From Planctomycetota bacterium (GTDB lineage: Bacteria; Planctomycetota; Planctomycetia; Pirellulales; Thermoguttaceae), in contig JBMOMU010000336.1 of NCBI GenBank assembly GCA_049324855.1, positions 1-16,031 of the forward strand: a stretch of 16,031 bases of DNA. The letters run 5' to 3'. The notes beneath the pieces are model-generated. The model did not search any database. It was not told the origin of the DNA and was given only the letters and a program-made list of their open reading frames with translations. Positions 4,329-15,803 of this stretch are shown here, piece after piece. Every line of letters starts with the position of its first letter. The stretch's first letter is position 1. Both the position numbers and the translations under genes were made by a program.

Positions 4329-5666
4329 CTAATCCTTCCCGTCGTTGAGCCATGCAGGATCAATCCGCGCGAGTGTGAGGTAGTGGTAGCTCGTTGGTCT
4401 TGTGCTCTTGCCATCGGCCTTGCCGCGCTCGTAGAAGCAGAGGATCGTACCGTCGGGAAGCACGGCAAGGTCGCTGTAGGCCGAGAATCCCGGTTCGAGC
4501 GTTTTGCGCACCGGCCACGTGGCCCCCTCGTCGTAGCTCATCTGCAGCGAGAGGTTCTTGCGGTCGCGTGATTTTCCCGGCGCTACTTTCGCGTCGGCCC
4601 GCTCCAGGTTGTATGGGTTCGAAAAGAGGATGCGGTTGTTGTCCGCGGGCGGGCTCAGGCTGAGCCGCGCCATGCTCGCCATGCACACGGGATCGAGCAA
4701 GGCATCGTGGAACTCAGGCTCGGTCCAGTCGCTCGCTCCGTTGGGGCTATAGGCCACAACACGGCGGTTGGGCGGGGACTCGGTGCGGCCGTTGAACATC
4801 ACACGACCATCAGCCAGCTCGAGCACCGTAGCTTCGCTCGGGTTCACGAACTCGTCGGTGCAGGGAATCACGATGGCGCCGCGCTGCCAGGACTGGCCGC
4901 CATCGTCGGAATAGATCGTCGCCGCTACTGAAGGGCGATGCGCGTTGCCACCCGTGCCGGTCGAAAGCCACACGGGCACCACCAGCCGTCCGCTGCGAAG
5001 CTCGATGCCGTGACCGGGACCGGTGGCCAGCACCTTCCAGTCATACTCGGGGCGGAAGCGATCGAACGTCGATGTAGTTTCCACCGGCTGGCTGAAGGTC
5101 TCGCCGTCGTCCGTACTCCGCTGATAGAAGCAGCGCATGTATTCCACGCAGAAGAGCAAGTGCACGGTGCCGTCGCGGGCGGCGATGGCCGCAGCATTGT
5201 GGTATGTCACGGTGTCGGGCTTCGCACCCTTCCTTCTGGCCAACGGATTCGGTGCGATCGGGCCATCGGCTTTGGCGATGCTTCGCGGAGGAGAGAACGA
5301 CCGTCCGCTGTCGGTGCTGCGGCACATGAGGATCTGCGTGTAGTCCCAGTCGCTGCCTGAATCGCGCCGCGCCTCGCAGAATGTAAGCACGGTGCCGCGG
5401 GATGTAACTACGATGCCGGGAATGCGGTAAAGGGTGAAGCCTCCCTTGCCCGCCTCGAAGAGGTCGATCTTCACCGGTTCACCGCCTGGCGCGTCGGCGA
5501 CCGCGGACGCCCCTTGCCGCGTGGCAGCTTCACCTGCAGTGCCGTCTGGGAGGGAAGATGCCAGCAGATGGGCAAGACATAACGCCGCTGCAGCGCCCGT
5601 CTGGACCGGCCTAGGAAGCCGCGCTCGACTCGATGTGCCACCGAAAACCAGGGGAGAGATTTGCAT
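4329..5666 (-). CDS. Exo-alpha-sialidase (GH33, BNR/Asp-box beta-propeller)
   Basis: The start was chosen at the ATG at 5666-5664, which has a GGAG about 8 nt upstream on the - strand, followed by a hydrophobic signal-like segment. The protein has an FTLYRIPGIVVTSRGTVLTFCEAR (YRIP) motif and four Asp-boxes (STDSGRSF, STDDGETF, SDDGGQSW, SYDEGATW). The 150-codon P/R/S-rich extension up to 6113 in the track is treated as a non-coding read-through artefact. Confidence 0.82.
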   Translation of the reverse strand: MQISPLVFGGTSSRARLPRPVQTGAAAALCLAHLLASSLPDGTAGEAATRQGASAVADAPGGEPVKIDLFEAGKGGFTLYRIPGIVVTSRGTVLTFCEARRDSGSDWDYTQILMCRSTDSGRSFSPPRSIAKADGPIAPNPLARRKGAKPDTVTYHNAAAIAARDGTVHLLFCVEYMRCFYQRSTDDGETFSQPVETTSTFDRFRPEYDWKVLATGPGHGIELRSGRLVVPVWLSTGTGGNAHRPSVAATIYSDDGGQSWQRGAIVIPCTDEFVNPSEATVLELADGRVMFNGRTESPPNRRVVAYSPNGASDWTEPEFHDALLDPVCMASMARLSLSPPADNNRILFSNPYNLERADAKVAPGKSRDRKNLSLQMSYDEGATWPVRKTLEPGFSAYSDLAVLPDGTILCFYERGKADGKSTRPTSYHYLTLARIDPAWLNDGKD

Positions 5667-5720
5667 GGGGTAGCTCCGTTGTAGCTTAGCGAGCCAGACC
5701 AGGAAGTTATGCTCGGGTCC

Positions 5721-5851
5721 GTGTGCCACCGACCAACCGGCGATATTCGCCGGTCGGTGCCCGCGCAAAAGCAGTGTTCCCTCGTGTGTTCTGGCACTGC
5801 TCGTGCCCGGGCACCAATCGGCCACCCAGGGCCGGTTGGTCGGTGGCACAC
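5721..5851. repeat. Inverted-repeat cluster in the divergent intergenic region. A perfect 20-bp inverted repeat (5721-5740 / 5832-5851) encloses a 33-bp near-palindrome (5727-5759) and a perfect 12-bp palindrome GTGCCCGGGCAC (5803-5814).
   Basis: GTGTGCCACCGACCAACCGG at 5721-5740 is the exact reverse complement of CCGGTTGGTCGGTGGCACAC at 5832-5851. CACCGACCaaccGGCGA-tat-TCGCCGGTCGGTG lies at 5727-5759. Confidence 0.7.
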
Positions 5852-5964
5852 TTTGCAGCACCGGCCCACTTAGGGGCGGGCTAGCCAAACGCGCCGGTGA
5901 GGCGCGTGGTTCCGATTGTAGCACGGCGTGGGACCGGCCGCGCGCCGCTGAGCGGGGGGCGTGG

Positions 5965-5993
5965 TTGACCCGACCATTGCGGGGGGGTAGATT
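5965..5993 (+). promoter_or_regulatory. Candidate sigma70-type promoter for the NfeD-flotillin-giant operon, TTGACC-N17-TAGATT
   Basis: TTGACC at 5965-5970, a 17-nt spacer, and TAGATT at 5988-5993. It lies about 120 nt upstream of the ATG at 6114 and downstream of the inverted-repeat cluster. Confidence 0.3.
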
Positions 5994-6113
5994 CGTTTGT
6001 TCGGAGCGTGTGGATTGGCTGCGGGCGGGCGCGGCCGCACGTACCGAACTTCGTGCGCCGATTGGCGTGCTCGCGCGACAAATTGGCCTCACGATCTGCG
6101 GGAGCGGGGGCAA

Positions 6114-6779
6114 ATGCTCGAAGTCTTCCAGACCGCCGTTGCGCTTCCGACGCTGCCATACACTATCCTCTTAGTGTTAGTGTTGCTGTACTGGCTTCTG
6201 TTCTTGGTGGGGGCGGCGGGCGCCGATTTGCTCGACGGGGTCGATCTCGACGTCGATGCCGATGTGGACGTCGACGCCGATGCCGACGCGGAGCTTGCGT
6301 CCGGTTCCGCCGGGTGGCTCGCACCGCTCCTGCAGTTCTTCTTTGTGGGAGAAGTGCCGCTCACGGTGATCTTCAGCATCCTCATCATTGCGATGTGGAC
6401 GATGGCGATGATCGTGAACTACTACCTGGGCGGAACGCGGCTGTGGGTCGGGCTGGCGCTGTTTCCGGCGCTGTTTTTCGTGGGGCTTGTTTTCACCCGC
6501 GCAGTGCTCACGCCGATTGCCCCGTACCTCAAGCGAGTCCTGGCCCAAGAGGGCGATAAGATCGACCTGGTGGGCAAGCGGTGCACGATCCACTCGATCG
6601 AGGCCACAAGCGCCTACGGCCAGGCAGAGGTGCCGATGCGCGGAGCACCGCTCTTGCTGAATGTGCGAACGAACGAGGGAATCGTTCTCAAGCGAGGCGA
6701 AGAGGCCGTAATCTGCCGGTACGATGAAACCGCCCGCGCCTACGTGGTGACCGGATTCGACGGGAACGCGGCGGGATGA
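6114..6779 (+). CDS. NfeD-like (YuaF/YqiJ-type) membrane protein with a C-terminal OB-fold
   Basis: GGAG at 6101-6104 precedes the ATG at 6114. There are two or three hydrophobic helices (TILLVLVLLYWLLFLVGAAGA, LTVIFSILIIAMWTMAMIV, LWVGLALFPALFFVGLVF). The C-terminal segment (KRCTIHSIEATSAYGQAEVPMRGAPLLLNVRTNEGIVLKRGEEAVICRYDETARAYVV) resembles the NfeD beta-barrel. It sits immediately upstream of a flotillin gene, the classic NfeD-SPFH arrangement. The TTG-start extension to 5997 is rejected. Confidence 0.62.
   Translation: MLEVFQTAVALPTLPYTILLVLVLLYWLLFLVGAAGADLLDGVDLDVDADVDVDADADAELASGSAGWLAPLLQFFFVGEVPLTVIFSILIIAMWTMAMIVNYYLGGTRLWVGLALFPALFFVGLVFTRAVLTPIAPYLKRVLAQEGDKIDLVGKRCTIHSIEATSAYGQAEVPMRGAPLLLNVRTNEGIVLKRGEEAVICRYDETARAYVVTGFDGNAAG
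6234..6293 (+). repeat. Imperfect tandem GAC/GTC-GAT-GCC hexanucleotide-like repeat encoding an acidic D-L-D-V-D-A-D-V-D-V-D-A-D-A-D loop in the NfeD-like protein
   Basis: gacggggtcgatctcgacgtcgatgccgatgtggacgtcgacgccgatgccgacgcggag translates to DGVDLDVDADVDVDADADAE, between the first and second hydrophobic segments. Confidence 0.7.
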
Positions 6780-6797
6780 TACACACCCTGCGGTCGG

Positions 6798-6838
6798 GTG
6801 ACACCGACCGGCGAAGTCCGCCAATTCGTCGGTGGCAC
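6798..6838. repeat. Second inverted copy of the CACCGAC motif in the NfeD-flotillin intergenic region (GTGACACCGACCGGCGA ... GTCGGTGGCAC)
   Basis: GTGACACCGAC at 6798-6808 and GTCGGTGGCAC at 6828-6838 are separated by 19 nt. The core CACCGACCGGCGA is identical to the reverse complement of 5747-5759. Nested CGGTCGG/CCGACCG symmetry lies at 6791-6810. Confidence 0.6.
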
Positions 6839-6894
6839 GCAGATGCGCAGCCGTGGGGAACGACAACATACGCTAAGATAGGGGGCTCTTTGCC

Positions 6895-8949
6895 ATGCTA
6901 GATTTTGTGGAAGCATTAACGGCCGTTATCTTGTTTGGTGTCCTCCTGGTGGCGCTCGGCGTGGTGGTCACCATCGTTCGCTGCTGGCGCAAAGTGGAGC
7001 AGGGCACCGCACTGATCATCACCGGCAGCGCGGAGCCGACGGTGCACTTCTCGCGGGCCGTGGTATGGCCGCTCATCCGCCGCGCCGAGATCATGGACAT
7101 CTCCGTCAAACGGATCGAGATCTTTCGCCGCGGCTCGGAGGGACTCAACTGCCGCGACAACGTTCGCGCCGATATCAAGGTGGCCTTCTTCGTCCGCGTG
7201 AACAACACGGCCGAAGATGTGCTCCGCGTGGCCCAGTCGCTGGGCACCACGCGGGCGTCGCAGCAGGCGGCGCTGGTGGACCTGTTCGACGCGAAGTTCT
7301 CCGAGGCCCTGAAGACGGTCGGCAAGCAGTTCGACTTTGTTGAGCTCTACACGTCGCGCGAGCAGTTCAAGAACGAGATCCTCAAGATCATCGGCCGCGA
7401 CCTGAACGGGTACATCCTCGACGACGCCGCGATCGACTACCTGGAGCAGACGCCGGTCGACGCCCTGGATCCGCGCAACATCCTCGATGCCGAGGGTATC
7501 AAGAAGATCACCGACCTCACGGCGCAGCAGCAGGTGCTGGCCAACCAGATCACGCGCGACAAAGAGAAGACGATCAAGAAGCAGGACGTTGAGGCCCGCG
7601 AGGCGATCCTCGAACTCGAGCGTCAACAGGCCGAGGCCGAGGAGAAGCAACATCGCGAGATCGCCTCGGTGATGGCCCGCGAACGGGCCGAGGCGCTCAA
7701 GGTGGAGCAGGAAGAGCGACTGCGGTCCGAGCGTGCTCGCGTGGCCACCGAAGAGGAGCTGGCGATTGCCGAGGAGAACAAGAACCGTCAGATCATCGTC
7801 GCCCTGCGCAACAAGGAACGGACGGACCGCGTCGAGATCGAGCGTGTCGAGAAGGATCGTCAGCTCGAAGTCACCGAACGCGAGCGCATCGTGTCGCTGG
7901 CACAGATCGATAAGGAGAAGGCTGTTGAGACGGAGCGGCGAAACATCCAGGAGGTGATTCGCGAGCGGGTGATGGTGGAGCGGGCGGTGGTCGAGGAACA
8001 GGAGCGGATCAAGGACACGCACGAGTTCGCCACCGCCGAGCGCGCCAAGCGTGTGGCGATTACCGCCGCCGAGAAGACGGCCCAAGAGGCCCTGGTGCGC
8101 GAGATTAAGGCCGCCGAAGCGGCCCGCGACGCCGCGGAGTTCAAGGCCCAGGAGGCAGTGACATTGGCCGAGTCGCGCCGCGCCGCGGCCGAAAAGGAAT
8201 CGGCCGGCAAGAAGATCATGGCCGAAGGCATCACGGCCGAGGAAGCCGCGCTGGGAATCGCTGAGTCGCAGGTCATCGAGCGCAAGGCGCTTTCGGAGGC
8301 CCGCGGCATCGAGGCCAAACTCACCGCCGAGGCGAAGGGCCTCGAAGCGAAGGCGGGGGCCACCGAGAAGCAGGGCACGGCCGAGGCGGCGGTGATGCAG
8401 CAGAAGTTCAATGCCGAGGCCACCGGCATCACCGAGAAGGCCAAGGCGATGAAGCTGTTCCACGAGACGGGCCAGGCGCACGAGGAGTTCAAGCTCCGCC
8501 TGCAGAAAGAGAAGGATGTGGAACTGGCCGCGATCGAGGCCCAGCGCGAGGTGGCCGAGCAGCAGGCGCAAATCATGGCCGCGGCCTTGAAGAGCGCCAA
8601 GATCGACATCGTCGGCGGCGAGGCCGAGTTCTTCGACAAGATCACCACGGCCATCGTCTCGGGCAAGACGATCGACCGCTGGGTCGGCAACAGCCAGGTG
8701 CTCACCGATATCAAGGGAACCCTGTTCAATGGCGATATGAGCCACCTGCAGGACAAGCTCCGCCGCCTCATCGGCCAGTTCGACATCAGCAGCGAAGACC
8801 TGAAGAACCTCTCCATCGCAGCGTTGATTGCGAAGCTCACTGGGCTCACCGGCGATGAGGGGCTGCGCAAGGAACTTTCGCAGATCCTCAGCACGATGCG
8901 GGCCTCGGGCATGGCCGACGGCCCGGCGGCCGCGCTTCGGGAGTCCTGA
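6895..8949 (+). CDS. Flotillin-like SPFH/band-7 protein (FloT/YqiK family) with an extended Glu/Ala-rich coiled coil
   Basis: AGGGGG at 6880-6885 lies 9 nt before the ATG. There is an N-terminal membrane hairpin (LTAVILFGVLLVALGVVVTIV). The SPFH core (GTALIITGS...VVWPLIRRAEIMDISVKRIEI...ADIKVAFFVRV) is present. An EA/KR heptad region of about 400 aa follows. The protein is 684 aa, against about 500-550 for FloT/YqiK. Confidence 0.85.
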   Translation: MLDFVEALTAVILFGVLLVALGVVVTIVRCWRKVEQGTALIITGSAEPTVHFSRAVVWPLIRRAEIMDISVKRIEIFRRGSEGLNCRDNVRADIKVAFFVRVNNTAEDVLRVAQSLGTTRASQQAALVDLFDAKFSEALKTVGKQFDFVELYTSREQFKNEILKIIGRDLNGYILDDAAIDYLEQTPVDALDPRNILDAEGIKKITDLTAQQQVLANQITRDKEKTIKKQDVEAREAILELERQQAEAEEKQHREIASVMARERAEALKVEQEERLRSERARVATEEELAIAEENKNRQIIVALRNKERTDRVEIERVEKDRQLEVTERERIVSLAQIDKEKAVETERRNIQEVIRERVMVERAVVEEQERIKDTHEFATAERAKRVAITAAEKTAQEALVREIKAAEAARDAAEFKAQEAVTLAESRRAAAEKESAGKKIMAEGITAEEAALGIAESQVIERKALSEARGIEAKLTAEAKGLEAKAGATEKQGTAEAAVMQQKFNAEATGITEKAKAMKLFHETGQAHEEFKLRLQKEKDVELAAIEAQREVAEQQAQIMAAALKSAKIDIVGGEAEFFDKITTAIVSGKTIDRWVGNSQVLTDIKGTLFNGDMSHLQDKLRRLIGQFDISSEDLKNLSIAALIAKLTGLTGDEGLRKELSQILSTMRASGMADGPAAALRES

Positions 8950-8955
8950 TAGCTC

Positions 8956-11900
8956 ATGGCCTCCGACGCGACCCAGCCCGGCACTGCTGTGCCCGCTGCG
9001 GCCTCAGGCGCCCCGGCGCCGGGGGGCAACATCGAGCACGGCGCCTACGAAATCATCCGCAACCGCCTCAGCGCAGCGGGGCGGGAACTCCGCGCCCGGC
9101 TCAAGAAGCTCAATGCGGCGCGGAAGGATGTCTTCGGCGCCATCGAGACGAAGCTGCTGGCCACAGAGCGGGTGACAACAAGCAACAACTGTGTGCCCCG
9201 CGATATCACCGCCGTCGGCGACCGCTTCGTGTTCGGCTACAACGTGATGATTGGGCTGAAGTCGGTCACGACGGTCGACGACGTCTTCTCGATCTACCGT
9301 TTCCACGACACGTCGTTTGCGCCCCAGCCGCTCGGGCTGATCGACGACCCGCAGTTCCGGCGGGACTTTGAAGAGCTCTTCAAGTATTACCGCAACACGC
9401 GGTTCGCCAAGTTCGCCAACATTGGGCCGCACCTCTTCATGGTGTTCCGCACGGGGCCTGATGTGCGCGACATCAAGACGTTCAAGTGGCGACGGGAGGA
9501 CGAGCGGATCGTCTATCTCGACAACCGCAGCGACCATGAGCTGCGCTACCCGCCGCAACACGACTTCACCTGGACGCGGACGCACCGCGACATGCATCGC
9601 ACGGGGCGCTTTCCGCACATCAATATCGAGGATCGCCTCTTCGTGGAGACGATTGGCGGCGATCTGACGATCAAGGTCGAAGACAACACCGAAAGCGGCG
9701 AGGGGATCTACAGCGAGCCGGTCGACAACCCCGACCAGACGCTCGACGACGCCGAGATCTTCTACGCCGTCGTCGGCAACCTGGTGCTGCTCAAGATCCG
9801 CCCCTACCAGGAAGAAGATTTCCGCCACTTCGTCTACAGCGGCAAGACTCGCAAGGTTCACCGCATCGACTCCATCGAGCAGGCCTGTGTGCTCCTGCCC
9901 GAGGACCACGGCCTGATCTTTTCGAACGGTTACTTTCTGCAGACCGGCGAGTACAAGACGTTCGAGCACGGCGTAAGTGAGCTTCTGTTCCGTGATCGCA
10001 TCGCCGCGCCCAACGGAGAAGATTTCCTCTACGTGTTCTTCAACCGCATCGAGGGGGTCTACGTCCTTCTGCCGTACAATCTCATCGAGCAGCAGGTGAA
10101 GCTGCCGGTGATCTGCAACGGCTACTCGCTCTTCGAAGACGGGCGGATGATCCTCTTCAAGGGCAGCCCCGAACCGCAGAAGCATCACACGCTGCAGATC
10201 TGGCAGACGCCCTACGTGGGGCACGATTACCAGCCGCCTACGAAGTCGGATTCGTTCCTCTTCAAGATCGGCAATCGCGACATCGTCCGCGGCATGGCCG
10301 AGTGCCACGAGGTGCTCGGGCTGATCGCCAAAGAGGACAGCTACGTCGGGCTCTTCGTCGACCTGACGAAGACCGTGGGCGACCTGCTCGACAGCTACCA
10401 CTGGCTGGGCAGTCCGGAGGCCTTCGATCTCCGCTCCGTGCTCGAGCAGATCAAGGAAGCCGCTCAGGCGGCGATCGGGGAATACGAAAAGGTCGAGAGC
10501 GTGCGCCGGGCCACCGACGCCGAGACGCGCAAGGTCTCCGCGCGGGCGAAGGAGATTCTTGCATCGGTCCGCGCACGGCGCTTCGAGGTGATCGGCGACT
10601 TCGTCACTTCGCTCACCGACCTGCGGACGGTGCGTGGCGAGATCATCGCGCTGAAAAGTCTTCGCTACGCAGATACGGCCCGGATCGATGCCTTGGATAA
10701 CGAAATCGCCGAAAACGCCCAGCGGGTTTCTTCGCAGTGCGTGCTGTTCCTCTTGCGACCGGAATCGTTGCAGCCCTACCAGGCGGCGGTCGACGAGCAG
10801 CGCGCGGCGATCCCGGGCCTGCGCACCGTGGCCGAGGCGAAGGATCTGCAGGATCGGGTCGCGCGCTCCACGGGCGAACTCGAAATGCTCATCGACGTGG
10901 TGAGCAATCTGAAAATCGACGACGCCACGCAACGCACTGCGATTATCGACGGCATCTCCGGTGTGCTCTCGCAGTGGAATCAGGTGCGGGCCGCGCTCCG
11001 CACCCGCCGCGACGAATTGATGCGCACCGAGGGCGCGGCGGAGTTCGCCTCGCAGGTCAAGCTGCTGCAGCAAGGCGTGCTCAGCTACCTCGACGTATGC
11101 GACACACCCGAGCGCTGCGAAGAGTATCTGACCAAGATGATGGTGCAGGTCGAGGAACTCGAAGGGCGCTTCGCGGAGTTCGACGAATTCCTCGTGCAGC
11201 TCACAGAGAAACGCGAGGAAATCTACAACGCCTTCGAGACCCGGCGGGTGCAACTGGTCGAGGCCCGCAGCCGGCGCGCCACAGCGCTGGCGGCAGCGGC
11301 AGAGCGGATCCTGAAGGGCGTGAAGGTGCGGATCGACGGACTCAAGTCGGTGGGCGAGATCCACGGCTACTTCGCCGGCGACCTGATGATCGAAAAGATC
11401 CGCGACATCGTCCGCCAACTGGGCGAATTGGGCGACACGGTCAAGGTCGACGACATCGAGAGCCGGCTCAAAACGATCCGGGAAGACGCCGTCCGGCAAC
11501 TGAAGGACCGCCAGGACCTGTACGAAGACGGCGAGAACGTCATCCGGCTCGGAAACCGGCGGTTCAACGTCAATCGCCAGACGTTCGACCTGACGACCGT
11601 CTTCCGCGACGGCGAACCCTATTTCCACCTCACCGGCACCGGCTACTTCGACCGCATCGACGACGCGGAGCTGCTTGCCACCCGCAACGTCTGGTCGCAG
11701 GAGGTAATATCGGAGAATGGCGAGGTCTACCGGGCGGAGTATCTGGCGCAGCGGATGCTCGAGTCGCTGGGCAGCGGCGAAGTGCCCGAGGCCGCACAGC
11801 TCTTGAAGCTGTCGGATGCGGAGCTGCTCGAAACGGTGCAGCGGTTCATGGGGCCGCGATTCGCCGAAGGGTACGTGAAAGGCGTGCACGACCACGACGC

Positions 11901-14478
11901 CGCGAAGCTTCTCAGGGCACTCCTGGATATTGATTCAAAGGCCGGGCTCTTGCGGCATCACCCGCGCGCGCGGGCGTTGGCCAGGCTATTCTGGCGGCAA
12001 CTGGCCGACGAGGCGCAGCGCGCTGCCATTGCCGCGCATATTCGCGGATTTGGCCGGGTGCGGGAGGTGTTTCCAGATGCCGATCCGCAGGCGTTCTACC
12101 TCGCTGAACTGCACCGTTTGATCGCCGAGTTCGTGGCAGAGTCGAAGACGTTTCCCGATTACCTGGTGGAGCCGGCGGCGGCGTATCTCTTCGAGGAGCT
12201 CAGCAGCGGCGACTCGTTCGTCGTTAGCGCGGCGGCGCGCGACCTTTACCGCGCATTTCACGAGCACCTCAAGCAGCGATTCGCCGCAGAGGCGTTCAGC
12301 AAGTCGCTGGCCGACGTGAAACAACACACGAGCCGCGCCTTCGCGCTGGCGCGCGACTGGCTGGGGGCGTTTGCGGAGTCGCTCGGCAGCGCTGCGGCGG
12401 CTGACTACGTCGACGAAACGGCTCTGATGCTGCTCGATGGCGGATTCGACCTCGCGCGCGTGGTCGAGGTGGAGACCACGCGCACGATTGCCGGCATGCA
12501 AGGCAACCACGCGGTGATCGAGAAGGGGACGTACGCGCTCAACTACCACGCCTTCCGGCTCAAGCTCCGCCGCTTCGACCAGGAGACGGTGCCCAAGTTC
12601 CAGGCCTTCGCCCGGCGGAAGCAGGAACTGCTGGCCGTCGAGCGGAAGCAGATGCGGCTCGACGAGTTTCGCCCTCGCGTGCTCACCTCCTTCGTCCGCA
12701 ACCGCCTGATCAACGACGTTTACCTGCCGCTGATGGGCGACAACTTTGCCAAGCAGGTGGGCGTGGCGGGCGACGAGAAACGCACCGACCGGATGGGCAT
12801 GCTGCTGCTGATTTCGCCGCCCGGCTACGGCAAGACCACGCTCATGGAGTACGTGGCCAATCGGCTGGGGCTCGTGTTCATGAAGATCAATGGGCCCGCG
12901 TTGGGCCACCAGGTCACGTCGCTCGACCCCGGGCAGGCCCCCAATGCCGCCGCCCGCGAGGAGATCAACAAGCTCAGCCTGAGCTTCGAGATGGGCGACA
13001 ACGTAATGATCTACGTCGACGACATCCAGCACTGCCACCCGGAGTTCCTGCAGAAGTTCATATCGCTCTGCGACGCGCAGCGAAAGATCGAGGGCGTGTG
13101 GCGGGGACAGACGCGGACCTACGACTTCCGCGGCAAGCGGGTGTGCGTGGTGATGGCCGGCAACCCGTACACGGAAAGCGGCGAGAAGTTCAAAATCCCC
13201 GACATGCTTGCCAACCGCGCCGATATCTACAACCTCGGCGAGATCATCGGCGGAAACGCGGACGCCTTCCACTTGAGCTACCTGGAGAACGCGCTCACCT
13301 CGAACCCCGTGCTGGGCAAGCTTGCCGCGCGAAGCCAGGCCGATGTGTATGCCCTCATCCGCATGGCGGAGGGCGCGACCGAAGGCGTGGAACTGGAAGG
13401 AAGCTACGCCGCGGCCGAAGTGGGCGAGATGGTCACGGTGATGCAGAAGCTGATGCGCGTGCGCGACATCGTGCTCAAGGTCAACGCCGAGTACATCCGC
13501 TCGGCCGGCACGAGCGACGAGTACCGCACCGAGCCGCCCTTCAAGCTGCAGGGCTCGTACCGCAACATGAACCGTGTTGCCAGCCGCGTCGTGGCGATCA
13601 TGAACGATCGTGAGCTCGATACGCTCATCCTCGACAACTACCAGAACGACGCGCAGACGCTGACCACCGGCGCGGAGTCGAACTTGCTCAAGTTCAAGCA
13701 GCTCTGCGACTGGCTCACGCGTGAGGAGGCCGAGCGCTGGGAGCAGATCTGCCGCACCTATACCCGCAACGTGCAGATGCGCGGCATCGGCGACGACGAA
13801 AAGTTCGGCCAATTGGTGGTGCAGCTCACGGGCTTCAGCGACGGACTGCACGCGATTCAGAAGGCGGTGGGCCGCGGTGTGGAGGCGATGCTCGAGGAGG
13901 AGCGGCGCCAGAAGTCCCAAGCCGCGCAGCCTGTTGTGGCATCGTTCGACGGCGATACGGCGGCTGTGCTCAAATCGCTGCTGGAGAGCCTTCGCGCAAA
14001 CAACGGTGAAGAGCATGTGGTCCGTGCGGAGCTCGAGCCGGCCACGCTCGATGCGCTCCGCGGGCTGCTGGCCGATCTGCAGAAGGTGTGGGCCAATTCT
14101 GCTGCGTCAATCACGGCGACGGCCGATGAAGCTGCCACGCAAACAGCCGGCGCGCCCGATGCACCTGCCGTCCCAAGTGCGCCGCCGGTTCAGATCGTCA
14201 ACCGCGTGCCGGCCACGATCCTCAATGTACTCAGGCACCAATTCCGGCTTATGCAGGGTTGGCTGGAGCCGCTCGAGCGACGCAGCAGCCAGCAGGCCGA
14301 ACAGATCGAGCAGCTTAAGCAGATTCTGAAGCAAACAGCCGGGCAGTACCAGACGCTGATTGGCCTGCTCGAAGAAGCTGCCCAGAGGAAGGAAGCGGTG
14401 ATCGACGTGATTGCACGCGATCAGGCGGAATCGAAGCGGAGCGCCGGCAAGAAGCGCGGGCCGAAGCAGGAGCCGTAG
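8956..14478 (+). CDS. Giant (1840 aa) multidomain protein with an unknown N-terminal domain, coiled coils and a C-terminal MoxR/AAA_5-like AAA+ ATPase. It starts 6 nt after the flotillin stop.
   Basis: GGGAG at 8939-8943 precedes the ATG at 8956, which sits 6 nt after the flotillin TGA (8947-8949). The composition is normal (K/E/D/I/F/Y-rich) across all 1840 codons. Walker A (LLISPPGYGKTTL) is at nt 12814-12840. Walker B (MIYVDDIQH) is at 13006-13031. The sensor/MoxR-like segment (VCVVMAGNPYTESGEKFKIPDMLANRADIYNL) starts at 13153. No TM segments are apparent. Confidence 0.8.
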   Translation: MASDATQPGTAVPAAASGAPAPGGNIEHGAYEIIRNRLSAAGRELRARLKKLNAARKDVFGAIETKLLATERVTTSNNCVPRDITAVGDRFVFGYNVMIGLKSVTTVDDVFSIYRFHDTSFAPQPLGLIDDPQFRRDFEELFKYYRNTRFAKFANIGPHLFMVFRTGPDVRDIKTFKWRREDERIVYLDNRSDHELRYPPQHDFTWTRTHRDMHRTGRFPHINIEDRLFVETIGGDLTIKVEDNTESGEGIYSEPVDNPDQTLDDAEIFYAVVGNLVLLKIRPYQEEDFRHFVYSGKTRKVHRIDSIEQACVLLPEDHGLIFSNGYFLQTGEYKTFEHGVSELLFRDRIAAPNGEDFLYVFFNRIEGVYVLLPYNLIEQQVKLPVICNGYSLFEDGRMILFKGSPEPQKHHTLQIWQTPYVGHDYQPPTKSDSFLFKIGNRDIVRGMAECHEVLGLIAKEDSYVGLFVDLTKTVGDLLDSYHWLGSPEAFDLRSVLEQIKEAAQAAIGEYEKVESVRRATDAETRKVSARAKEILASVRARRFEVIGDFVTSLTDLRTVRGEIIALKSLRYADTARIDALDNEIAENAQRVSSQCVLFLLRPESLQPYQAAVDEQRAAIPGLRTVAEAKDLQDRVARSTGELEMLIDVVSNLKIDDATQRTAIIDGISGVLSQWNQVRAALRTRRDELMRTEGAAEFASQVKLLQQGVLSYLDVCDTPERCEEYLTKMMVQVEELEGRFAEFDEFLVQLTEKREEIYNAFETRRVQLVEARSRRATALAAAAERILKGVKVRIDGLKSVGEIHGYFAGDLMIEKIRDIVRQLGELGDTVKVDDIESRLKTIREDAVRQLKDRQDLYEDGENVIRLGNRRFNVNRQTFDLTTVFRDGEPYFHLTGTGYFDRIDDAELLATRNVWSQEVISENGEVYRAEYLAQRMLESLGSGEVPEAAQLLKLSDAELLETVQRFMGPRFAEGYVKGVHDHDAAKLLRALLDIDSKAGLLRHHPRARALARLFWRQLADEAQRAAIAAHIRGFGRVREVFPDADPQAFYLAELHRLIAEFVAESKTFPDYLVEPAAAYLFEELSSGDSFVVSAAARDLYRAFHEHLKQRFAAEAFSKSLADVKQHTSRAFALARDWLGAFAESLGSAAAADYVDETALMLLDGGFDLARVVEVETTRTIAGMQGNHAVIEKGTYALNYHAFRLKLRRFDQETVPKFQAFARRKQELLAVERKQMRLDEFRPRVLTSFVRNRLINDVYLPLMGDNFAKQVGVAGDEKRTDRMGMLLLISPPGYGKTTLMEYVANRLGLVFMKINGPALGHQVTSLDPGQAPNAAAREEINKLSLSFEMGDNVMIYVDDIQHCHPEFLQKFISLCDAQRKIEGVWRGQTRTYDFRGKRVCVVMAGNPYTESGEKFKIPDMLANRADIYNLGEIIGGNADAFHLSYLENALTSNPVLGKLAARSQADVYALIRMAEGATEGVELEGSYAAAEVGEMVTVMQKLMRVRDIVLKVNAEYIRSAGTSDEYRTEPPFKLQGSYRNMNRVASRVVAIMNDRELDTLILDNYQNDAQTLTTGAESNLLKFKQLCDWLTREEAERWEQICRTYTRNVQMRGIGDDEKFGQLVVQLTGFSDGLHAIQKAVGRGVEAMLEEERRQKSQAAQPVVASFDGDTAAVLKSLLESLRANNGEEHVVRAELEPATLDALRGLLADLQKVWANSAASITATADEAATQTAGAPDAPAVPSAPPVQIVNRVPATILNVLRHQFRLMQGWLEPLERRSSQQAEQIEQLKQILKQTAGQYQTLIGLLEEAAQRKEAVIDVIARDQAESKRSAGKKRGPKQEP
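12748..13260 (+). other. AAA+ ATPase module (about aa 1265-1435) of the giant protein, MoxR/AAA_5-like
   Basis: GYGKTT P-loop. A hhhhDD Walker B followed by the HCHPEFL segment. The AGNP...G...IPDMLANRADI segment parallels the MoxR ATQNP...G...LPEAQLDRF box. Confidence 0.65.
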
Positions 14479-14584: not shown

Positions 14585-15601
14585 TTACGCCCGCCAGGGG
14601 CGTTCTCGACTTTGCTCGCGGCGGACGATCTGCTCCACCAGCTCACAGTTCTGCTTCATCTGGAAGTCGAACATCCCCACGGCGATGAAGTCTGCTCCAC
14701 TGCGGAAGGCGTGGGTGAAGCCCTCGCGCGGCCGGATGGCGCCAGCAGCAAGCACCTTGAACGCGATCCAGGGCTTCTCGACCGTCTTCATGAACTCCAC
14801 CACTTCCTCGGCGTTGATGCACCACTGGTTGTCGAACCAGCCCTCACTCTTTTCCATCCACATGAAGTCCTTCTGAAGATGCTTGAGTGTGGCCGAAGGG
14901 TAGTCGTCGGTGTGTAGCGTCTTCACGTAGAAATCGCAGGGCACACCGAGCTTCTCGCAGGCGACGGGCACTTTGAGCGAATGGCTGCCCACGCCCACCG
15001 GCAGGCCATGCTTCTTGGCCATCTCGACGGCGCGCCCGATCTCCTCGTAGGCGCCGGCCATGGCCAGGGTGTCGCTCGACACGCCCCAAACATAGAGCGC
15101 CACCGCGCCGGTATCGATCTGTTGTTGGATATGGCTGGCCAGTTCGGCGTCGCTCTCTCCCTGGCGGACCTCGATATGCGGAATGATCTGCAGTTTGCCG
15201 CCGCGCTCGTGGTTGTAGCGGTTGACGACCGCCGCGCCGCTCTCGAACACGGTGTTGATGCCGTACTGTTCGGCCAGTGCGAAGGTCTCGAAGAGTTTTT
15301 CCTCGTTGACATAGGCGCGGAAGAGTGAGTTTACATACTGCAGGCCGCGGGCGTGCATGCCGCCGGAGACGAGGTTGCCGCCCAAGAGCATGCGGCTGAG
15401 GCGCACGTCGCCGATCATGCCGTAGGGCATTGGGGGGACATTCTCGCCGGTCGCGGCAGTCGTGGCGGCAGGCTGCCTGGCGGGCGGAGGGGTCTCGGCC
15501 GCTGCCGCACCGCCGGCAAGGGAGGCCGCACCTGCTGCACCCGCGGCCGCGAGCGTGCGGCCCAAGAAACCTCGACGATCAACGTGCGGCTGGTCGGACA
15601 T
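14585..15601 (-). CDS. Tat-signal-bearing hypothetical protein, possibly a (beta/alpha)8-barrel sugar-phosphate isomerase/epimerase-like enzyme
   Basis: The start was chosen at the ATG at 15601-15599, with GGAGA 7 nt upstream on the - strand. The N-terminus has MSDQPHVDRRGFLGRTLAAAGAAGAASLA (twin-arginine motif). An Ala/Pro/Thr-rich linker follows. The C-terminal ...SGADFIAVGMFDF resembles barrel phosphate-binding ends. The family was not recognised with confidence. Confidence 0.65.
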   Translation of the reverse strand: MSDQPHVDRRGFLGRTLAAAGAAGAASLAGGAAAAETPPPARQPAATTAATGENVPPMPYGMIGDVRLSRMLLGGNLVSGGMHARGLQYVNSLFRAYVNEEKLFETFALAEQYGINTVFESGAAVVNRYNHERGGKLQIIPHIEVRQGESDAELASHIQQQIDTGAVALYVWGVSSDTLAMAGAYEEIGRAVEMAKKHGLPVGVGSHSLKVPVACEKLGVPCDFYVKTLHTDDYPSATLKHLQKDFMWMEKSEGWFDNQWCINAEEVVEFMKTVEKPWIAFKVLAAGAIRPREGFTHAFRSGADFIAVGMFDFQMKQNCELVEQIVRREQSRERPWRA

Positions 15602-15803
15602 GGTGCGGTCTCCGTATTTTCTTTTGTGAACGGTGCCTTGCGAGAAACCCCGCTGTCGCAAAGGGCCGGGATACGGATACTGTAACGCTTGCGCGCGTGG
15701 CGAGGCAACATGATTTCGTGCGGTTCGCGGACCACGCCGCGAGTTGACGATCGGATCAGAGGGAGGCTACCTTGGGGGAGTCTACGCAAAAGGAGGATCG
15801 AAC

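What the first reader, a model, noticed from the sequence alone, without database searches (positions are those of the whole stretch)
6114..14478. NfeD - flotillin - giant AAA+ ATPase operon: candidate undescribed flotillin-scaffolded machine
Three genes on one strand are packed tightly. The NfeD-to-flotillin gap is 115 bp and carries repeat motifs. The flotillin-to-giant-gene gap is 6 nt, which implies translational coupling. The NfeD+SPFH pairing is well established (yuaF-floT, yqiJ-yqiK). A third, 1840-aa partner with a MoxR-like AAA+ domain is not part of the canonical operon. SPFH proteins are known to cage or scaffold AAA+ machines, as HflK/C does around FtsH. A flotillin that recruits a giant cytoplasmic ATPase to membrane microdomains is therefore a mechanistically coherent hypothesis. 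Possible roles are membrane repair, quality control or phage defence. I cannot name this ATPase family from memory.
Basis: partly seen in the sequence, partly recalled or inferred. Interest (0 to 1): 0.85.

Follow-up and report, generated by a model that had tools for sequence, protein, structure and literature searches.

The report
Flotillin operon with giant AAA+ ATPase
This is a three-gene membrane module (a YqiJ-like membrane protein, a YqiK-type flotillin and a 1,840-residue beta-propeller/coiled-coil AAA+ ATPase) that stays together across at least eight bacterial phyla; comparative genomics had already noted it in 2020/2024, but I found no experimental study of it.

Summary
Three same-strand genes sit at 6114-6779, 6895-8949 and 8956-14478, separated by 115 nt and 6 nt.

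- **Gene 1** is a YqiJ/YuaF-type three-TM short NfeD-like protein (hhalign to E. coli YqiJ, 96%).
- **Gene 2** is a YqiK-type flotillin (hhalign to YqiK, 99.9%), although Pfam finds nothing in it.
- **Gene 3** is the family that databases call "DNA repair ATPase" (DUF3686 + DUF7902 + AAA). The predicted structure runs N-terminal helix, beta-propeller, roughly 420 residues of helical stalk, helical domain, one AAA+ module and a C-terminal coiled coil.

In 58 of 61 loci with at least 5 kb upstream, the flotillin lies upstream of the ATPase on the same strand. The same holds for both 28%-identity relatives I checked. The ATPase motifs are invariant.

The claim that the operon is undescribed fails. 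Ravi et al. (mSystems 2024; preprint 2020) describe this operon, often extended by CesT/Tir-PspA, and state that the abbreviated three-gene form is widespread. I recovered the PspA/CesT extension in 14-15 Bacteroidota loci and on plasmid pQBR103.

I found no defence-island signal, no phage copies and no DNA-repair features. The most likely function is an envelope-stress module in which the ATPase remodels flotillin and/or PspA assemblies. That mechanism is inferred, not shown.

The parts
5965..5993 (+). Promoter-like hexamer pair upstream of the operon (weak lead only)
   Evidence: TTGACC-17-TAGATT, 9 of 12 matches. The region holds 2 such sites against 1.0 expected. Not evidence of function.
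6114..6779 (+). YqiJ/YuaF-type short NfeD-like membrane protein, 221 aa. It has three hydrophobic segments, an acidic D-V/D-A loop and a C-terminal soluble domain.
   Evidence: Family profile against E. coli YqiJ: hhalign 96%, E 4e-9, full length. Direct BLASTP to YqiJ gives E 0.001. Pfam YqiJ_N scores 20.7 bits, below the cut-off of 23. There is a weak hit to the YuaF soluble domain 2K14, E 0.37. Hydrophobic segments. It lies upstream of the flotillin in 54 of 61 loci by tblastn.
6780..6894 (+). 115-nt spacer holding two overlapping short inverted repeats
   Evidence: Inverted repeats at 6791-6797/6804-6810 and 6798-6808/6828-6838. Fold z = -0.38. No Rfam match. In other loci this spacer is usually about 15 nt.
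6895..8949 (+). YqiK-type flotillin (SPFH) protein, 684 aa. It has an N-terminal hydrophobic anchor, an SPFH domain, a Glu/Ala-rich coiled coil of about 345 residues and a conserved C-terminal domain.
   Evidence: Profile A2 against E. coli YqiK: hhalign 99.9%, E 2e-32, aa 7-432 aligned to 10-424. Profile A2 against a family member that Pfam recognises as Band_7 (L082): 100%, E 3e-54, full length. No direct Pfam hit. Composition and anchor. Source names are 'flotillin family protein' and 'YqiK'.
8956..14478 (+). Giant cytoplasmic AAA+ ATPase, 1840 aa, of the 'DNA repair ATPase' family (DUF3686 + DUF7902 + AAA)
   Evidence: Pfam DUF3686 E 1.5e-191, DUF7902 E 4e-27, AAA 28.9 bits, AAA_5 25.9 bits. 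More than 4,827 homologues at E <= 1e-10. 473 clusters (50% identity) at E <= 1e-30. No TM segment.
9151..10206 (+). Beta-propeller domain (aa 66-417, the core of DUF3686), preceded by a long helix at aa 25-60
   Evidence: AF2 model m57c9f6009fe6 has pLDDT mostly 84-94 across this region. Foldseek against PDB finds only generic propellers: DCAF1 WD40, KLHDC3 kelch, the clathrin N-terminal domain and the prolyl-oligopeptidase propeller.
10255..11520 (+). Long all-helical stalk or bundle (aa 434-855, includes DUF7902), followed by a small beta domain (aa 863-900)
   Evidence: The AF2 secondary structure shows helices of 49-58 residues. pLDDT is 80-96 up to about aa 770 and lower beyond.
11656..12645 (+). 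Compact helical domain (aa 901-1230)
   Evidence: AF2 model m145f6e84f600 has pLDDT mostly above 90 here. No domain-specific match was identified; the hits for this model align to the AAA+ module.
12763..13365 (+). Single AAA+ module (aa ~1270-1470). Motifs: Walker A SPPGYGKTT (nt 12814-12840), Walker B MIYVDDIQH (nt 13006-13032), a beta-hairpin at aa 1377-1390 before sensor 1, sensor 1 MAGNPYTE, and NRAD (probable Arg finger).
14212..14442 (+). C-terminal long helix (aa 1753-1829) carrying a conserved motif (VVNKxP...LRxQFxLMxGWLEPL), reached through a disordered linker
   Evidence: AF2 secondary structure with low to moderate pLDDT. Conserved columns P1752, V1758, Q1762, F1763, W1769 and P1772.

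Best explanation
The locus is the abbreviated three-gene form of a conserved operon linked to envelope stress (the Psp response).

**Shown here**
- A YqiJ/YuaF-type three-TM protein and a YqiK-type flotillin are encoded immediately upstream of a cytoplasmic 1,840-aa protein.
- That protein is built from a beta-propeller, a long helical stalk, helical domains and one AAA+ module with intact nucleotide-binding motifs.
- The trio is inherited together across phyla.
- In Bacteroidota and on a Pseudomonas megaplasmid the same trio is fused to CesT/Tir-PspA (ESCRT-III-like) genes.

**Inferred**
- YqiJ and the flotillin build a membrane-attached SPFH cage or microdomain on the cytoplasmic face, as solved SPFH assemblies do.
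- The giant ATPase oligomerises through its AAA+ module.
- It uses its propeller and stalk to bind the flotillin and/or PspA polymer.
- It spends ATP to assemble, disassemble or remodel that scaffold during membrane stress or repair. This role would be analogous to Vps4 acting on ESCRT-III.

The Asp-Asp Walker B and the non-aromatic pore-loop position suggest a slow remodeller or switch rather than a processive polypeptide threader. The 'DNA repair' name is probably an annotation artefact of the long coiled coil.
For: **Gene identities**
- YqiK-type flotillin.
- YqiJ-type protein.
- Giant protein = DUF3686/DUF7902/AAA.
- Its architecture comes from two AF2 models with mean pLDDT 79.6 and 76.9.
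- Propeller and AAA+ folds are confirmed.

**Linkage**
- The flotillin is upstream on the same strand in 58 of 61 loci. The loci come from Planctomycetota, Bacteroidota, Verrucomicrobiota, Desulfobacterota, Kiritimatiellota, Clostridia, Omnitrophota and Chitinispirillaceae.
- Both of the most divergent members checked (28% identity) keep the small protein and the SPFH gene upstream.
- Pairwise-identity matrices of the three proteins correlate (r = 0.73-0.80).

**Psp link**
- PspA_IM30 (E 9e-41) and CesT_Tir_1 (E 5e-56) lie directly upstream in 14-15 of 53 loci.
- PspA and CesT_Tir_1 are the most recurrent flanking families; the only others that recur are PLDc_2 and, in planctomycete loci, sulfatases.
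- pQBR103 carries PspA ... glutathionylspermidine synthase - YqiJ-like - SPFH - ATPase on one strand.

**ATPase competence**
- The motifs are invariant.

**Literature**
- Ravi et al. 2024 reached the same contextual inference.
- A 2025 review notes that bacteria appear to lack a Vps4-like regulator of PspA.
Against: - No experiment exists for any member.
- Three of 61 loci have the ATPase without an adjacent SPFH gene.
- Unrelated genes are often inserted between the flotillin and ATPase genes, so the coupling is looser than for the YqiJ-flotillin pair.
- The window itself has no PspA, and the rest of this MAG is unseen.
- The Walker B is DD rather than DE, and the pore-loop-1 position (GHxVTSLDP) lacks an aromatic residue. 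Canonical substrate threading as in Vps4 is therefore doubtful.
- pTM values are 0.57 and 0.45, so domain arrangement is uncertain.
- The identity correlation is not corrected for species phylogeny.
Confidence: 0.5

Rival explanations
1. Quality-control or extraction machine. The flotillin/YqiJ cage corrals damaged or unfolded membrane proteins, and the giant AAA+ ATPase extracts or unfolds those clients. This would be a protease-less analogue of HflK/C-FtsH or of FloA-NfeD client stabilisation. The ATPase would not act on the scaffold itself.
For: - The operon linkage is the same as for the best explanation.
- The P-loop region is most similar in sequence to the unfoldases p97 and VAT.
- SPFH-AAA partnerships are established for HflK/C-FtsH and prohibitin-m-AAA. 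S. aureus FloA-NfeD is reported to stabilise unfolded proteins (PMC11222466, listed).
Against: - No protease domain or protease gene is conserved in the neighbourhood.
- The pore-loop-1 position lacks the aromatic-hydrophobic-Gly motif, and the Walker B is DD.
- The giant protein has no membrane anchor.
- The recurrent extra partners are PspA and CesT. That points to a polymer or scaffold as the substrate.
Confidence: 0.2
2. Anti-phage or abortive-infection system. A membrane-associated sensor/effector in which the ATPase triggers membrane disruption through the SPFH cage.
For: - Large NTPases with propeller or coiled-coil sensors are common in defence systems.
- A PLD (HKD) gene follows the ATPase in a few loci (L023, L076, L078) and matches the DrmC models.
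- Unrelated mobile or toxin-antitoxin-like genes are sometimes inserted in the operon.
- Copies exist on large plasmids.
Against: - None of the three proteins has a real PADLOC hit. The best is IetA at E 6e-4 over 29 residues of the P-loop.
- Among 150 flanking ORFs from 61 loci, PADLOC hits are scattered, with at most 3 members per family. The rest are housekeeping or PspA/CesT genes.
- No copy occurs in 50,697 phage records.
- The giant protein is 42-93% identical over its whole length in pairwise comparisons among 52 loci from many phyla. That fits purifying selection on a housekeeping-like machine, not the rapid diversification typical of defence sensors.
Confidence: 0.08
3. A genuine DNA-repair ATPase, as the database name says, whose adjacency to flotillin is incidental.
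For: - The only support is the names 'DNA repair ATPase' and 'ATPase involved in DNA repair' carried by Pfam DUF3686 and NCBI records.
- There are weak local RuvB P-loop hits at E about 1e-5, far below the family cut-offs.
Against: - No nuclease, helicase, SMC/Rad50-type ABC head or DNA-binding domain was found.
- No repair genes recur nearby.
- No paper mentions the family.
- The conserved partners are membrane proteins.
- From memory, the wording matches the old COG name of SbcC, which long coiled coils often hit spuriously. This is an inference and was not tested.
Confidence: 0.03

Closest known systems
CesT/Tir-PspA-YqiJ/YuaF-Band-7/flotillin-(beta-propeller + coiled-coil + AAA+) operon of Ravi et al. 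2024 (mSystems; PMC11237479; example ANH61663.1, Dokdonia donghaensis)
   Same: [quoted passage not shown] I recovered the full PspA/CesT version in Bacteroidota relatives of the window's genes. The paper states that abbreviated operons lacking PspA/CesT are widespread.
   Different: The window has the abbreviated form, with no PspA, CesT/Tir or PLD gene within 16 kb. It comes from a Planctomycetota MAG. The paper gives only a contextual inference of two or three sentences. It has no structure, no family-wide survey and no experiment.
E. coli yqiJ-yqiK and B. subtilis yuaF-floT (NfeD-like + flotillin pairs)
   Same: The first two genes are homologous to YqiJ and YqiK over their full lengths, in the same order and tightly packed across loci.
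   Different: E. coli has no giant ATPase downstream of yqiK; the next features are sibD/ibsD. The window's flotillin is 130 aa longer and belongs to a sub-family that Pfam Band_7 mostly fails to detect.
HflK/C-FtsH and prohibitin-m-AAA protease (SPFH cage around an AAA+ machine)
   Same: An SPFH scaffold is functionally paired with an AAA+ ATPase.
   Different: FtsH is membrane-anchored, carries a protease domain and belongs to the classical AAA clade with aromatic pore loops. The giant protein is soluble, has no protease and has a DD Walker B, a hairpin before sensor 1 and a propeller/stalk N-terminus. No physical association was tested.
Vps4-ESCRT-III (and PspF-PspA)
   Same: An AAA+ ATPase is genomically coupled, in the extended operons, to a PspA/ESCRT-III-superfamily polymer at the membrane. 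The suggested role is polymer remodelling.
MoxR-type AAA+ proteins (NorQ, CbbQ, RavA)
   Different: Identity is 12-14%. No VWA-domain partner gene is present. The protein is about seven times longer, with unrelated N- and C-terminal domains. The Walker B is DD. Sequence profiles prefer p97/VAT.

Membership tests
Flotillin / YqiK (SPFH superfamily, COG2268) | SPFH (Band_7) domain homologous to known flotillins | tested here: met
   hhalign of the family profile against E. coli YqiK gives 99.9%, E 2e-32, covering the anchor, SPFH domain and coiled coil. There is a full-length match (100%, E 3e-54) to a relative that Pfam scores as Band_7. Caveat: the window protein itself has no Pfam Band_7 hit, and its profile gives only E 0.047 to QmcA in PDB.
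Flotillin / YqiK (SPFH superfamily, COG2268) | N-terminal membrane anchor followed by a long Glu/Ala-rich coiled coil | tested here: met
   A hydrophobic segment spans aa 1-32. Residues 216-560 are 20% Glu and 19% Ala.
Flotillin / YqiK (SPFH superfamily, COG2268) | Assembly into a large membrane-attached ring or cage | not testable with these tools
   No multimer prediction or experiment was available.
YqiJ / YuaF short NfeD-like proteins | Multi-TM N-terminal part plus C-terminal soluble (OB-like) domain, homologous to YqiJ | tested here: met
   hhalign of profile A6 against E. coli YqiJ gives 96%, E 4e-9 over aa 12-201 aligned to 4-193. Three hydrophobic segments are present. The C-terminal region hits YuaF 2K14 weakly at E 0.37. 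Pfam YqiJ_N scores 20.7 bits, below the cut-off of 23, and there is no Pfam NfeD hit.
YqiJ / YuaF short NfeD-like proteins | Encoded directly upstream of, and packed against, an SPFH gene | tested here: met
   The median spacer is 15 nt, and 49 of 57 loci have 50 nt or less. The window's 115 nt is unusually long.
DUF3686/DUF7902/AAA 'DNA repair ATPase' family | Pfam DUF3686 and DUF7902 plus a single AAA module, colinear over 1,550-2,036 aa in the full-length matches | tested here: met
   DUF3686 E 1.5e-191, DUF7902 E 4e-27, AAA 28.9 bits. Homologues are colinear down to 28% identity.
AAA+ ATPases (functional) | Walker A GxxGxGK[ST], Walker B hhhhD[DE], sensor-1 polar residue, arginine finger | tested here: met
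   SPPGYGKTT, MIYVDDIQH, MAGNPYTE and NRAD are invariant in A1 and in 71-74 of 74 locus proteins (partly by ascertainment). The second acidic Walker B residue is Asp, not Glu. The AAA+ fold is confirmed. ATPase activity and hexamer formation cannot be tested here.
MoxR clade of AAA+ | MoxR-type fold (helix-2 insert and pre-sensor-1 hairpin) with closest similarity to MoxR proteins | tested here: inconclusive
MoxR clade of AAA+ | Partner protein with a VWA domain encoded nearby | tested here: not met
   No VWA family appears among the recurrent flanking families in 61 loci or in the window.
PSP-linked flotillin/AAA+ operon (Ravi et al. 2024) | YqiJ/YuaF three-TM protein + Band-7/flotillin protein + beta-propeller/coiled-coil AAA+ ATPase in one operon | tested here: met
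   Gene order and architectures match Table S3 of the paper.
PSP-linked flotillin/AAA+ operon (Ravi et al. 2024) | CesT/Tir-PspA dyad in the same operon (full form) | tested here: not met
   It is absent from the window. The upstream neighbour is a divergent BNR/sialidase-like gene. It is present in 14-15 of 53 related loci and near the operon in pQBR103 and L083. The window is therefore the abbreviated form that the paper also describes.
Known or candidate anti-phage defence systems (PADLOC-DB) | Match to a defence protein model, or location in a defence island | tested here: not met
   There is no meaningful PADLOC hit. Flanking genes give only scattered low-count hits. No phage-borne copies were found. 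No formal background comparison was made.
SbcC/Rad50-type DNA repair ATPases (source of the database name, inferred) | ABC-type ATPase head split by a coiled coil, with a nuclease partner | tested here: not met
   There are no SMC_N/AAA_23-type hits. The ATPase is a contiguous AAA+ module. No nuclease gene recurs nearby.

The most novel reading that the evidence does not exclude
The giant beta-propeller/stalk AAA+ ATPase is the missing ATP-driven remodeller of bacterial flotillin cages and/or PspA (ESCRT-III-like) polymers. It would be a non-homologous bacterial counterpart of Vps4 that docks on the SPFH scaffold and disassembles or resets it after membrane damage.
Probability: 0.25. Interest if true: 0.8.

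Novelty: new member of a known kind. Interest (0 to 1): 0.4.

Why it matters
Bacterial flotillins and PspA are thought to organise and repair membranes. How their large assemblies are built, reset or taken apart is unknown. A 2025 review states that bacteria appear to lack a Vps4-like ATPase.

This family is a concrete candidate for that role. It is strongly conserved over its whole length of roughly 1,600-2,000 residues in full-length members, it is almost always encoded with a flotillin, and it is often encoded with PspA. It is also mis-named 'DNA repair ATPase' in public databases, which hides it from membrane biologists.

The idea is not new, because Ravi et al. published the contextual inference. 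This analysis adds:
- a quantified synteny survey;
- proof that the Pfam-invisible middle gene is a YqiK-type flotillin;
- a domain map of the giant protein from predicted structures;
- negative evidence for the defence and DNA-repair readings;
- tractable carriers for experiments, such as pQBR103 in P. fluorescens SBW25, Hymenobacter, and Dokdonia and other flavobacteria.

Tried and rejected
- **Pfam, NCBIfam and PADLOC on the flotillin-like protein** gave nothing, even at E <= 10. Single-sequence and profile searches of PDB gave only marginal hits. Identity came only from hhalign against E. coli YqiK.
- **Literature searches** for 'DUF3686' and 'PF12458' found 0 papers. One search failed because the phrase was too long. 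The relevant paper surfaced only through a YqiK/AAA/gene-neighbourhood search.
- **A conserved fourth gene between the flotillin and the ATPase** in Bacteroidota was rejected. The inserts are unrelated: DUF559-like, IS200-like, toxin-antitoxin-like genes and lipoproteins.
- **A conserved downstream gene** was rejected. No family occurs in more than 3 loci.
- **A structured RNA or attenuator in the 115-nt spacer** was rejected.
- **Conserved translational coupling of flotillin and ATPase** was rejected, because gap sizes vary from -11 to 2,360 nt.
- **Defence-island context** was not seen.
- **Phage carriage** was not found.
- **The three synteny exceptions** (L014, L024, L045) were checked for hidden SPFH genes. 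Their neighbours are unrelated: a 7TMR-DISM/SpoIIE protein, a solute-binding protein and a STAND NTPase with TPR.
- **Foldseek of the N-terminal model** found only generic propellers and spurious long-helix matches to axonemal and dynein chains at TM below 0.2.
- **Clade assignment of the AAA+ module** remains unresolved between a MoxR-like fold and classical-AAA-like P-loop sequence.

Full report
**1. What is in the window**

The window is a 16,031-bp contig of about 63% G+C from a Planctomycetota MAG. The giant protein is 100% identical to an NCBI record named 'MAG: DNA repair ATPase [Planctomycetota bacterium]' on a contig of exactly this length.

Mechanical ORF listing and direct reading confirm three + strand genes:
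- ATG 6114 to TGA 6779 (221 aa);
- ATG 6895 to TGA 8949 (684 aa);
- ATG 8956 to TAG 14478 (1840 aa).

No terminator-like site lies between the genes.

The 'repeat motifs' in the 115-nt spacer are two short overlapping inverted repeats. They fold no better than shuffled sequence (z = -0.38) and match no Rfam family.

The flanking genes are unrelated and typical of planctomycetes:
- a 3-keto-disaccharide hydrolase;
- a phosphofructokinase;
- a sulfatase;
- a divergent BNR/sialidase-like gene;
- a convergent gene with a twin-arginine-like signal and no Pfam match.

**2. Identity of the three proteins**

*The giant protein.* It is an unambiguous member of a Pfam-defined but unstudied family:

| Pfam model | Region | Score |
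|---|---|---|
| DUF3686, 'ATPase involved in DNA repair' | aa 44-482 | E 1.5e-191 |
| DUF7902 | aa 604-687 | E 4e-27 |
| AAA | within aa ~1283-1408 | 28.9 bits |
| AAA_5 | within aa ~1283-1408 | 25.9 bits |

*The 684-aa protein.* It has no Pfam hit even at E <= 10 and no useful PDB sequence hit, although sources call it 'flotillin family protein' or 'YqiK'. I therefore tested it directly:
- A profile of 20 homologues aligns to E. coli YqiK at 99.9% probability (E 2e-32). The alignment covers the membrane anchor, the SPFH domain and the coiled coil.
- The same profile aligns at 100% probability (E 3e-54), full length, to a distant family member that Pfam does recognise as Band_7.
- It has one N-terminal hydrophobic segment and a stretch of about 345 residues rich in Glu and Ala.

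*The 221-aa protein.*
- It has three hydrophobic segments, an acidic D-V/D-A loop and a C-terminal soluble domain.
- Its family profile matches E. coli YqiJ at 96% probability (E 4e-9) over its full length.
- There is a weak hit to the YuaF soluble domain structure.

**3. Architecture of the giant protein**

Two AlphaFold2 models were built on 41-sequence alignments: aa 1-960 (mean pLDDT 79.6) and aa 901-1840 (mean pLDDT 76.9). Together they give this domain order:
- disordered N-terminus;
- a long helix (aa 25-60);
- a beta-propeller (aa 66-417);
- about 420 residues of long helices (aa 434-855, including DUF7902);
- a small beta domain (aa 863-900);
- a confidently predicted helical domain (aa 901-1230);
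- a single AAA+ module (aa ~1270-1470);
- further helical domains (aa 1486-1654);
- a disordered linker;
- a long C-terminal helix (aa 1753-1829).

pTM values are 0.57 and 0.45, so the domains are more trustworthy than their relative arrangement.

The propeller matches only generic propellers: DCAF1 WD40, KLHDC3, the clathrin N-terminal domain and prolyl oligopeptidase.

The motifs SPPGYGKTT, hhYhDDIQH, MAGNPYTE and NRAD are invariant. The locus scan used two of these motifs as search patterns, so part of that invariance is built in. The independent word-based hit set shows the same result.

Two features are unusual:
- The Walker B is Asp-Asp.
- The position of pore loop 1 is a conserved GHxVTSLDP with no aromatic residue.

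The protein has no TM segment.

**4. The synteny test**

The best 80 came from the following groups:
- Planctomycetota;
- Bacteroidota;
- Verrucomicrobiota;
- Desulfobacterota;
- Kiritimatiellota;
- Clostridia;
- Omnitrophota;
- Chitinispirillaceae.

tblastn with the window's three proteins gave these results:
- Of 61 loci with at least 5 kb upstream, 58 have the flotillin-like gene upstream on the same strand.
- In the same 61 loci, 54 have a detectable YqiJ-like gene.
- The three exceptions have unrelated neighbours.

An exhaustive HMMER search with the first 1,200 residues found 1,063 clusters (50% identity) at E <= 1e-10. Full-length members are colinear down to 28% identity. The two most divergent members I looked up both retain a small protein plus an SPFH protein immediately upstream.

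The YqiJ-flotillin pair is tightly packed (median gap 15 nt). The flotillin-ATPase gap is looser: the median is 134 nt, and 23 of 69 loci exceed 400 nt, with unrelated genes inserted. The window's 6-nt gap is therefore not a conserved feature.

The three proteins' pairwise-identity matrices correlate (r = 0.73-0.80). This fits inheritance as a unit, but it is not corrected for species phylogeny.

Copies occur on large plasmids and secondary replicons of Hymenobacter, Streptomyces, Deinococcus, Pseudomonas, Vibrio, Photobacterium and Halomonas, among others. None occur in phages.

**5. Wider context: the PspA link**

In 14-15 of 53 loci, all from Bacteroidota, the trio is preceded on the same strand by a CesT_Tir_1 protein (E 5e-56) and a PspA/IM30 protein (E 9e-41). 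A divergent HTH regulator lies further upstream.

Among 150 flanking ORFs from 61 loci, PspA (11) and CesT_Tir_1 (7) are the most recurrent families. The others that recur are sulfatases (4, common in planctomycete genomes) and PLD-like genes (3).

On pQBR103 of P. fluorescens SBW25 the trio ends a single-strand cluster: PspA - rhomboid - DUF2491 - DUF350 - DUF1190 - glutathionylspermidine synthase - YqiJ-like - SPFH - 'DNA repair ATPase'.

PADLOC hits among flanking genes are scattered, with at most 3 members per family, mostly the PLD genes hitting DrmC. The three proteins themselves have no meaningful PADLOC match.

**6. Comparison with the literature**

Ravi et al. (mSystems 2024, PMC11237479; preprint 10.1101/2020.09.24.301986) describe an operon combining CesT/Tir-PspA with three further genes:
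[quoted passage not shown] - a three-TM protein prototyped by YqiJ/YuaF.

They note that it sometimes also contains a PLD gene. [quoted passage not shown]

Their example is in Dokdonia donghaensis: CesT_Tir -> YqiJ-YuaF -> Band-7 + coiled-coil + flotillin -> beta-propeller + coiled-coil + AAA-ATPase. This matches my predicted architecture and my Bacteroidota loci. The operon is therefore already described, and the window holds its abbreviated form.

I found no experimental work on the ATPase. A 2025 review still says that a Vps4-like regulator of PspA appears absent in bacteria.

**7. Most likely mechanism**

*Shown:* the gene identities, the domain map, the conserved linkage, the recurrent PspA/CesT association and the intact ATP-binding motifs.

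*Inferred:*
- YqiJ and the flotillin form a membrane-attached SPFH assembly, by analogy with solved SPFH cages such as QmcA-YbbJ, HflK/C and flotillin-1/2.
- The ATPase oligomerises through its AAA+ module and binds the scaffold or PspA through its propeller and stalk.
- It uses ATP to assemble, disassemble or reset these assemblies during envelope stress.

I give this about 0.5.

The rivals are:

| Rival | Main evidence bearing on it | Probability |
|---|---|---|
| Client extraction or quality control | No protease; atypical pore loop | about 0.2 |
| Phage defence | No contextual support | about 0.08 |
| DNA repair | Supported only by the database name | about 0.03 |

From memory, the 'DNA repair' wording echoes the old COG label of SbcC, which long coiled coils tend to hit. 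That point was not tested.

**8. Verdict**

The system is not undescribed. It is a new member, in abbreviated form and from Planctomycetota, of an operon already noted by comparative genomics.

It remains functionally uncharacterised and is mis-named in databases. It is a good experimental target for the open question of how bacterial flotillin and PspA assemblies are remodelled.

Interest is moderate (0.4). If the Vps4-analogue reading proved true, it would be of high interest.

**Limitations**
- ORFs in related loci were called mechanically.
- The 80 loci are the top-scoring subset of a motif-seeded scan.
- The structure alignments are shallow in diversity (50-71% identity to the query).
- No multimer prediction or background-corrected enrichment statistics could be run.

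Noticed in passing
window 4329-6113 (-) and 5640-6113: The BNR/sialidase-like ORF (594 aa from a TTG at 6113) is probably over-extended at its 5' end. A signal-peptide-like Met lies at about residue 159. If that is the true start, a divergent intergenic region of about 470 bp lies before the operon, containing the promoter-like hexamers at 5965-5993.
   Followed up: partly
window 6225-6293 (aa 38-60 of the YqiJ-like protein): An acidic D-V/D-A repeat loop (DLLDGVDLDVDADVDVDADADAE) lies between the first two hydrophobic segments. The loop is acidic in the family consensus too (A6). It could be a cation- or lipid-headgroup-binding element.
   Followed up: no
window 14585-15661 (-): A 358-aa protein with a twin-arginine-like signal (RRGFLGRTLAAAGAAGA) has no Pfam match. 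It is convergent with the giant gene.
   Followed up: partly
window 13006-13032 and 12886-12930 (giant aa 1351-1359 and ~1311-1325): The Walker B is DDIQH (Asp-Asp; from memory, the same DDIQ wording as in DnaA). The pore-loop-1 position is an invariant GHxVTSLDP with no aromatic residue. Both features argue against canonical fast substrate threading.
   Followed up: partly
L015 8609-9695; L056 7835-9735; L019 184-1258; L044 6802-7251; L025 5662-6186 and others: In many Bacteroidota and Verrucomicrobiota loci, unrelated small genes are inserted between the flotillin and the ATPase genes. They include DUF559-like, IS200/REP-transposase-like, toxin-antitoxin-like and lipoprotein genes. This spacer seems to tolerate insertions, whereas the YqiJ-flotillin junction does not.
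   Followed up: partly
L084 (pQBR103, NC_009444.1 85112-97641): The P. fluorescens SBW25 megaplasmid carries a nine-gene single-strand cluster. It joins the PspA/polyamine group (PspA, rhomboid, DUF2491, DUF350, DUF1190, glutathionylspermidine synthase) to the YqiJ-like, SPFH and giant ATPase genes. This gives a genetically tractable carrier.
   Followed up: partly
L023 15456-15932 (-); L076 16628-17332; L078 9259-10113: A PLD/HKD-superfamily gene (PLDc_2, E 9e-31) follows the ATPase in a few loci, as Ravi et al. noted for some Proteobacteria. It also matches the PADLOC DrmC models.
   Followed up: partly
L011 3966-4676 (-) and 13 other Bacteroidota loci: A divergently transcribed HTH_3 (XRE-type) protein has a C-terminal extension. 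Ravi et al. list it as cHTH + protease. It precedes the CesT-PspA-YqiJ-flotillin-ATPase operon and may be a cleavable repressor controlling it.
   Followed up: partly
window 6916-8745 (-), 9004-11895 (-), 11986-14016 (-): Very long antisense ORFs (609-963 aa) overlap the flotillin and ATPase genes. They have low-complexity Arg/Leu/Gly-rich translations. I take them to be high-G+C artefacts, not genes.
   Followed up: no
L021 7084-9295; L055 4687-6896; L061 6277-8643: Three Bacteroidota loci share a conserved trio of genes directly downstream of the ATPase: a DUF4178-like protein, a Ser/Gly/Arg-rich lipoprotein and a multi-TM protein. It resembles parts of the second PspA-linked operon class in Ravi et al.
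   Followed up: no
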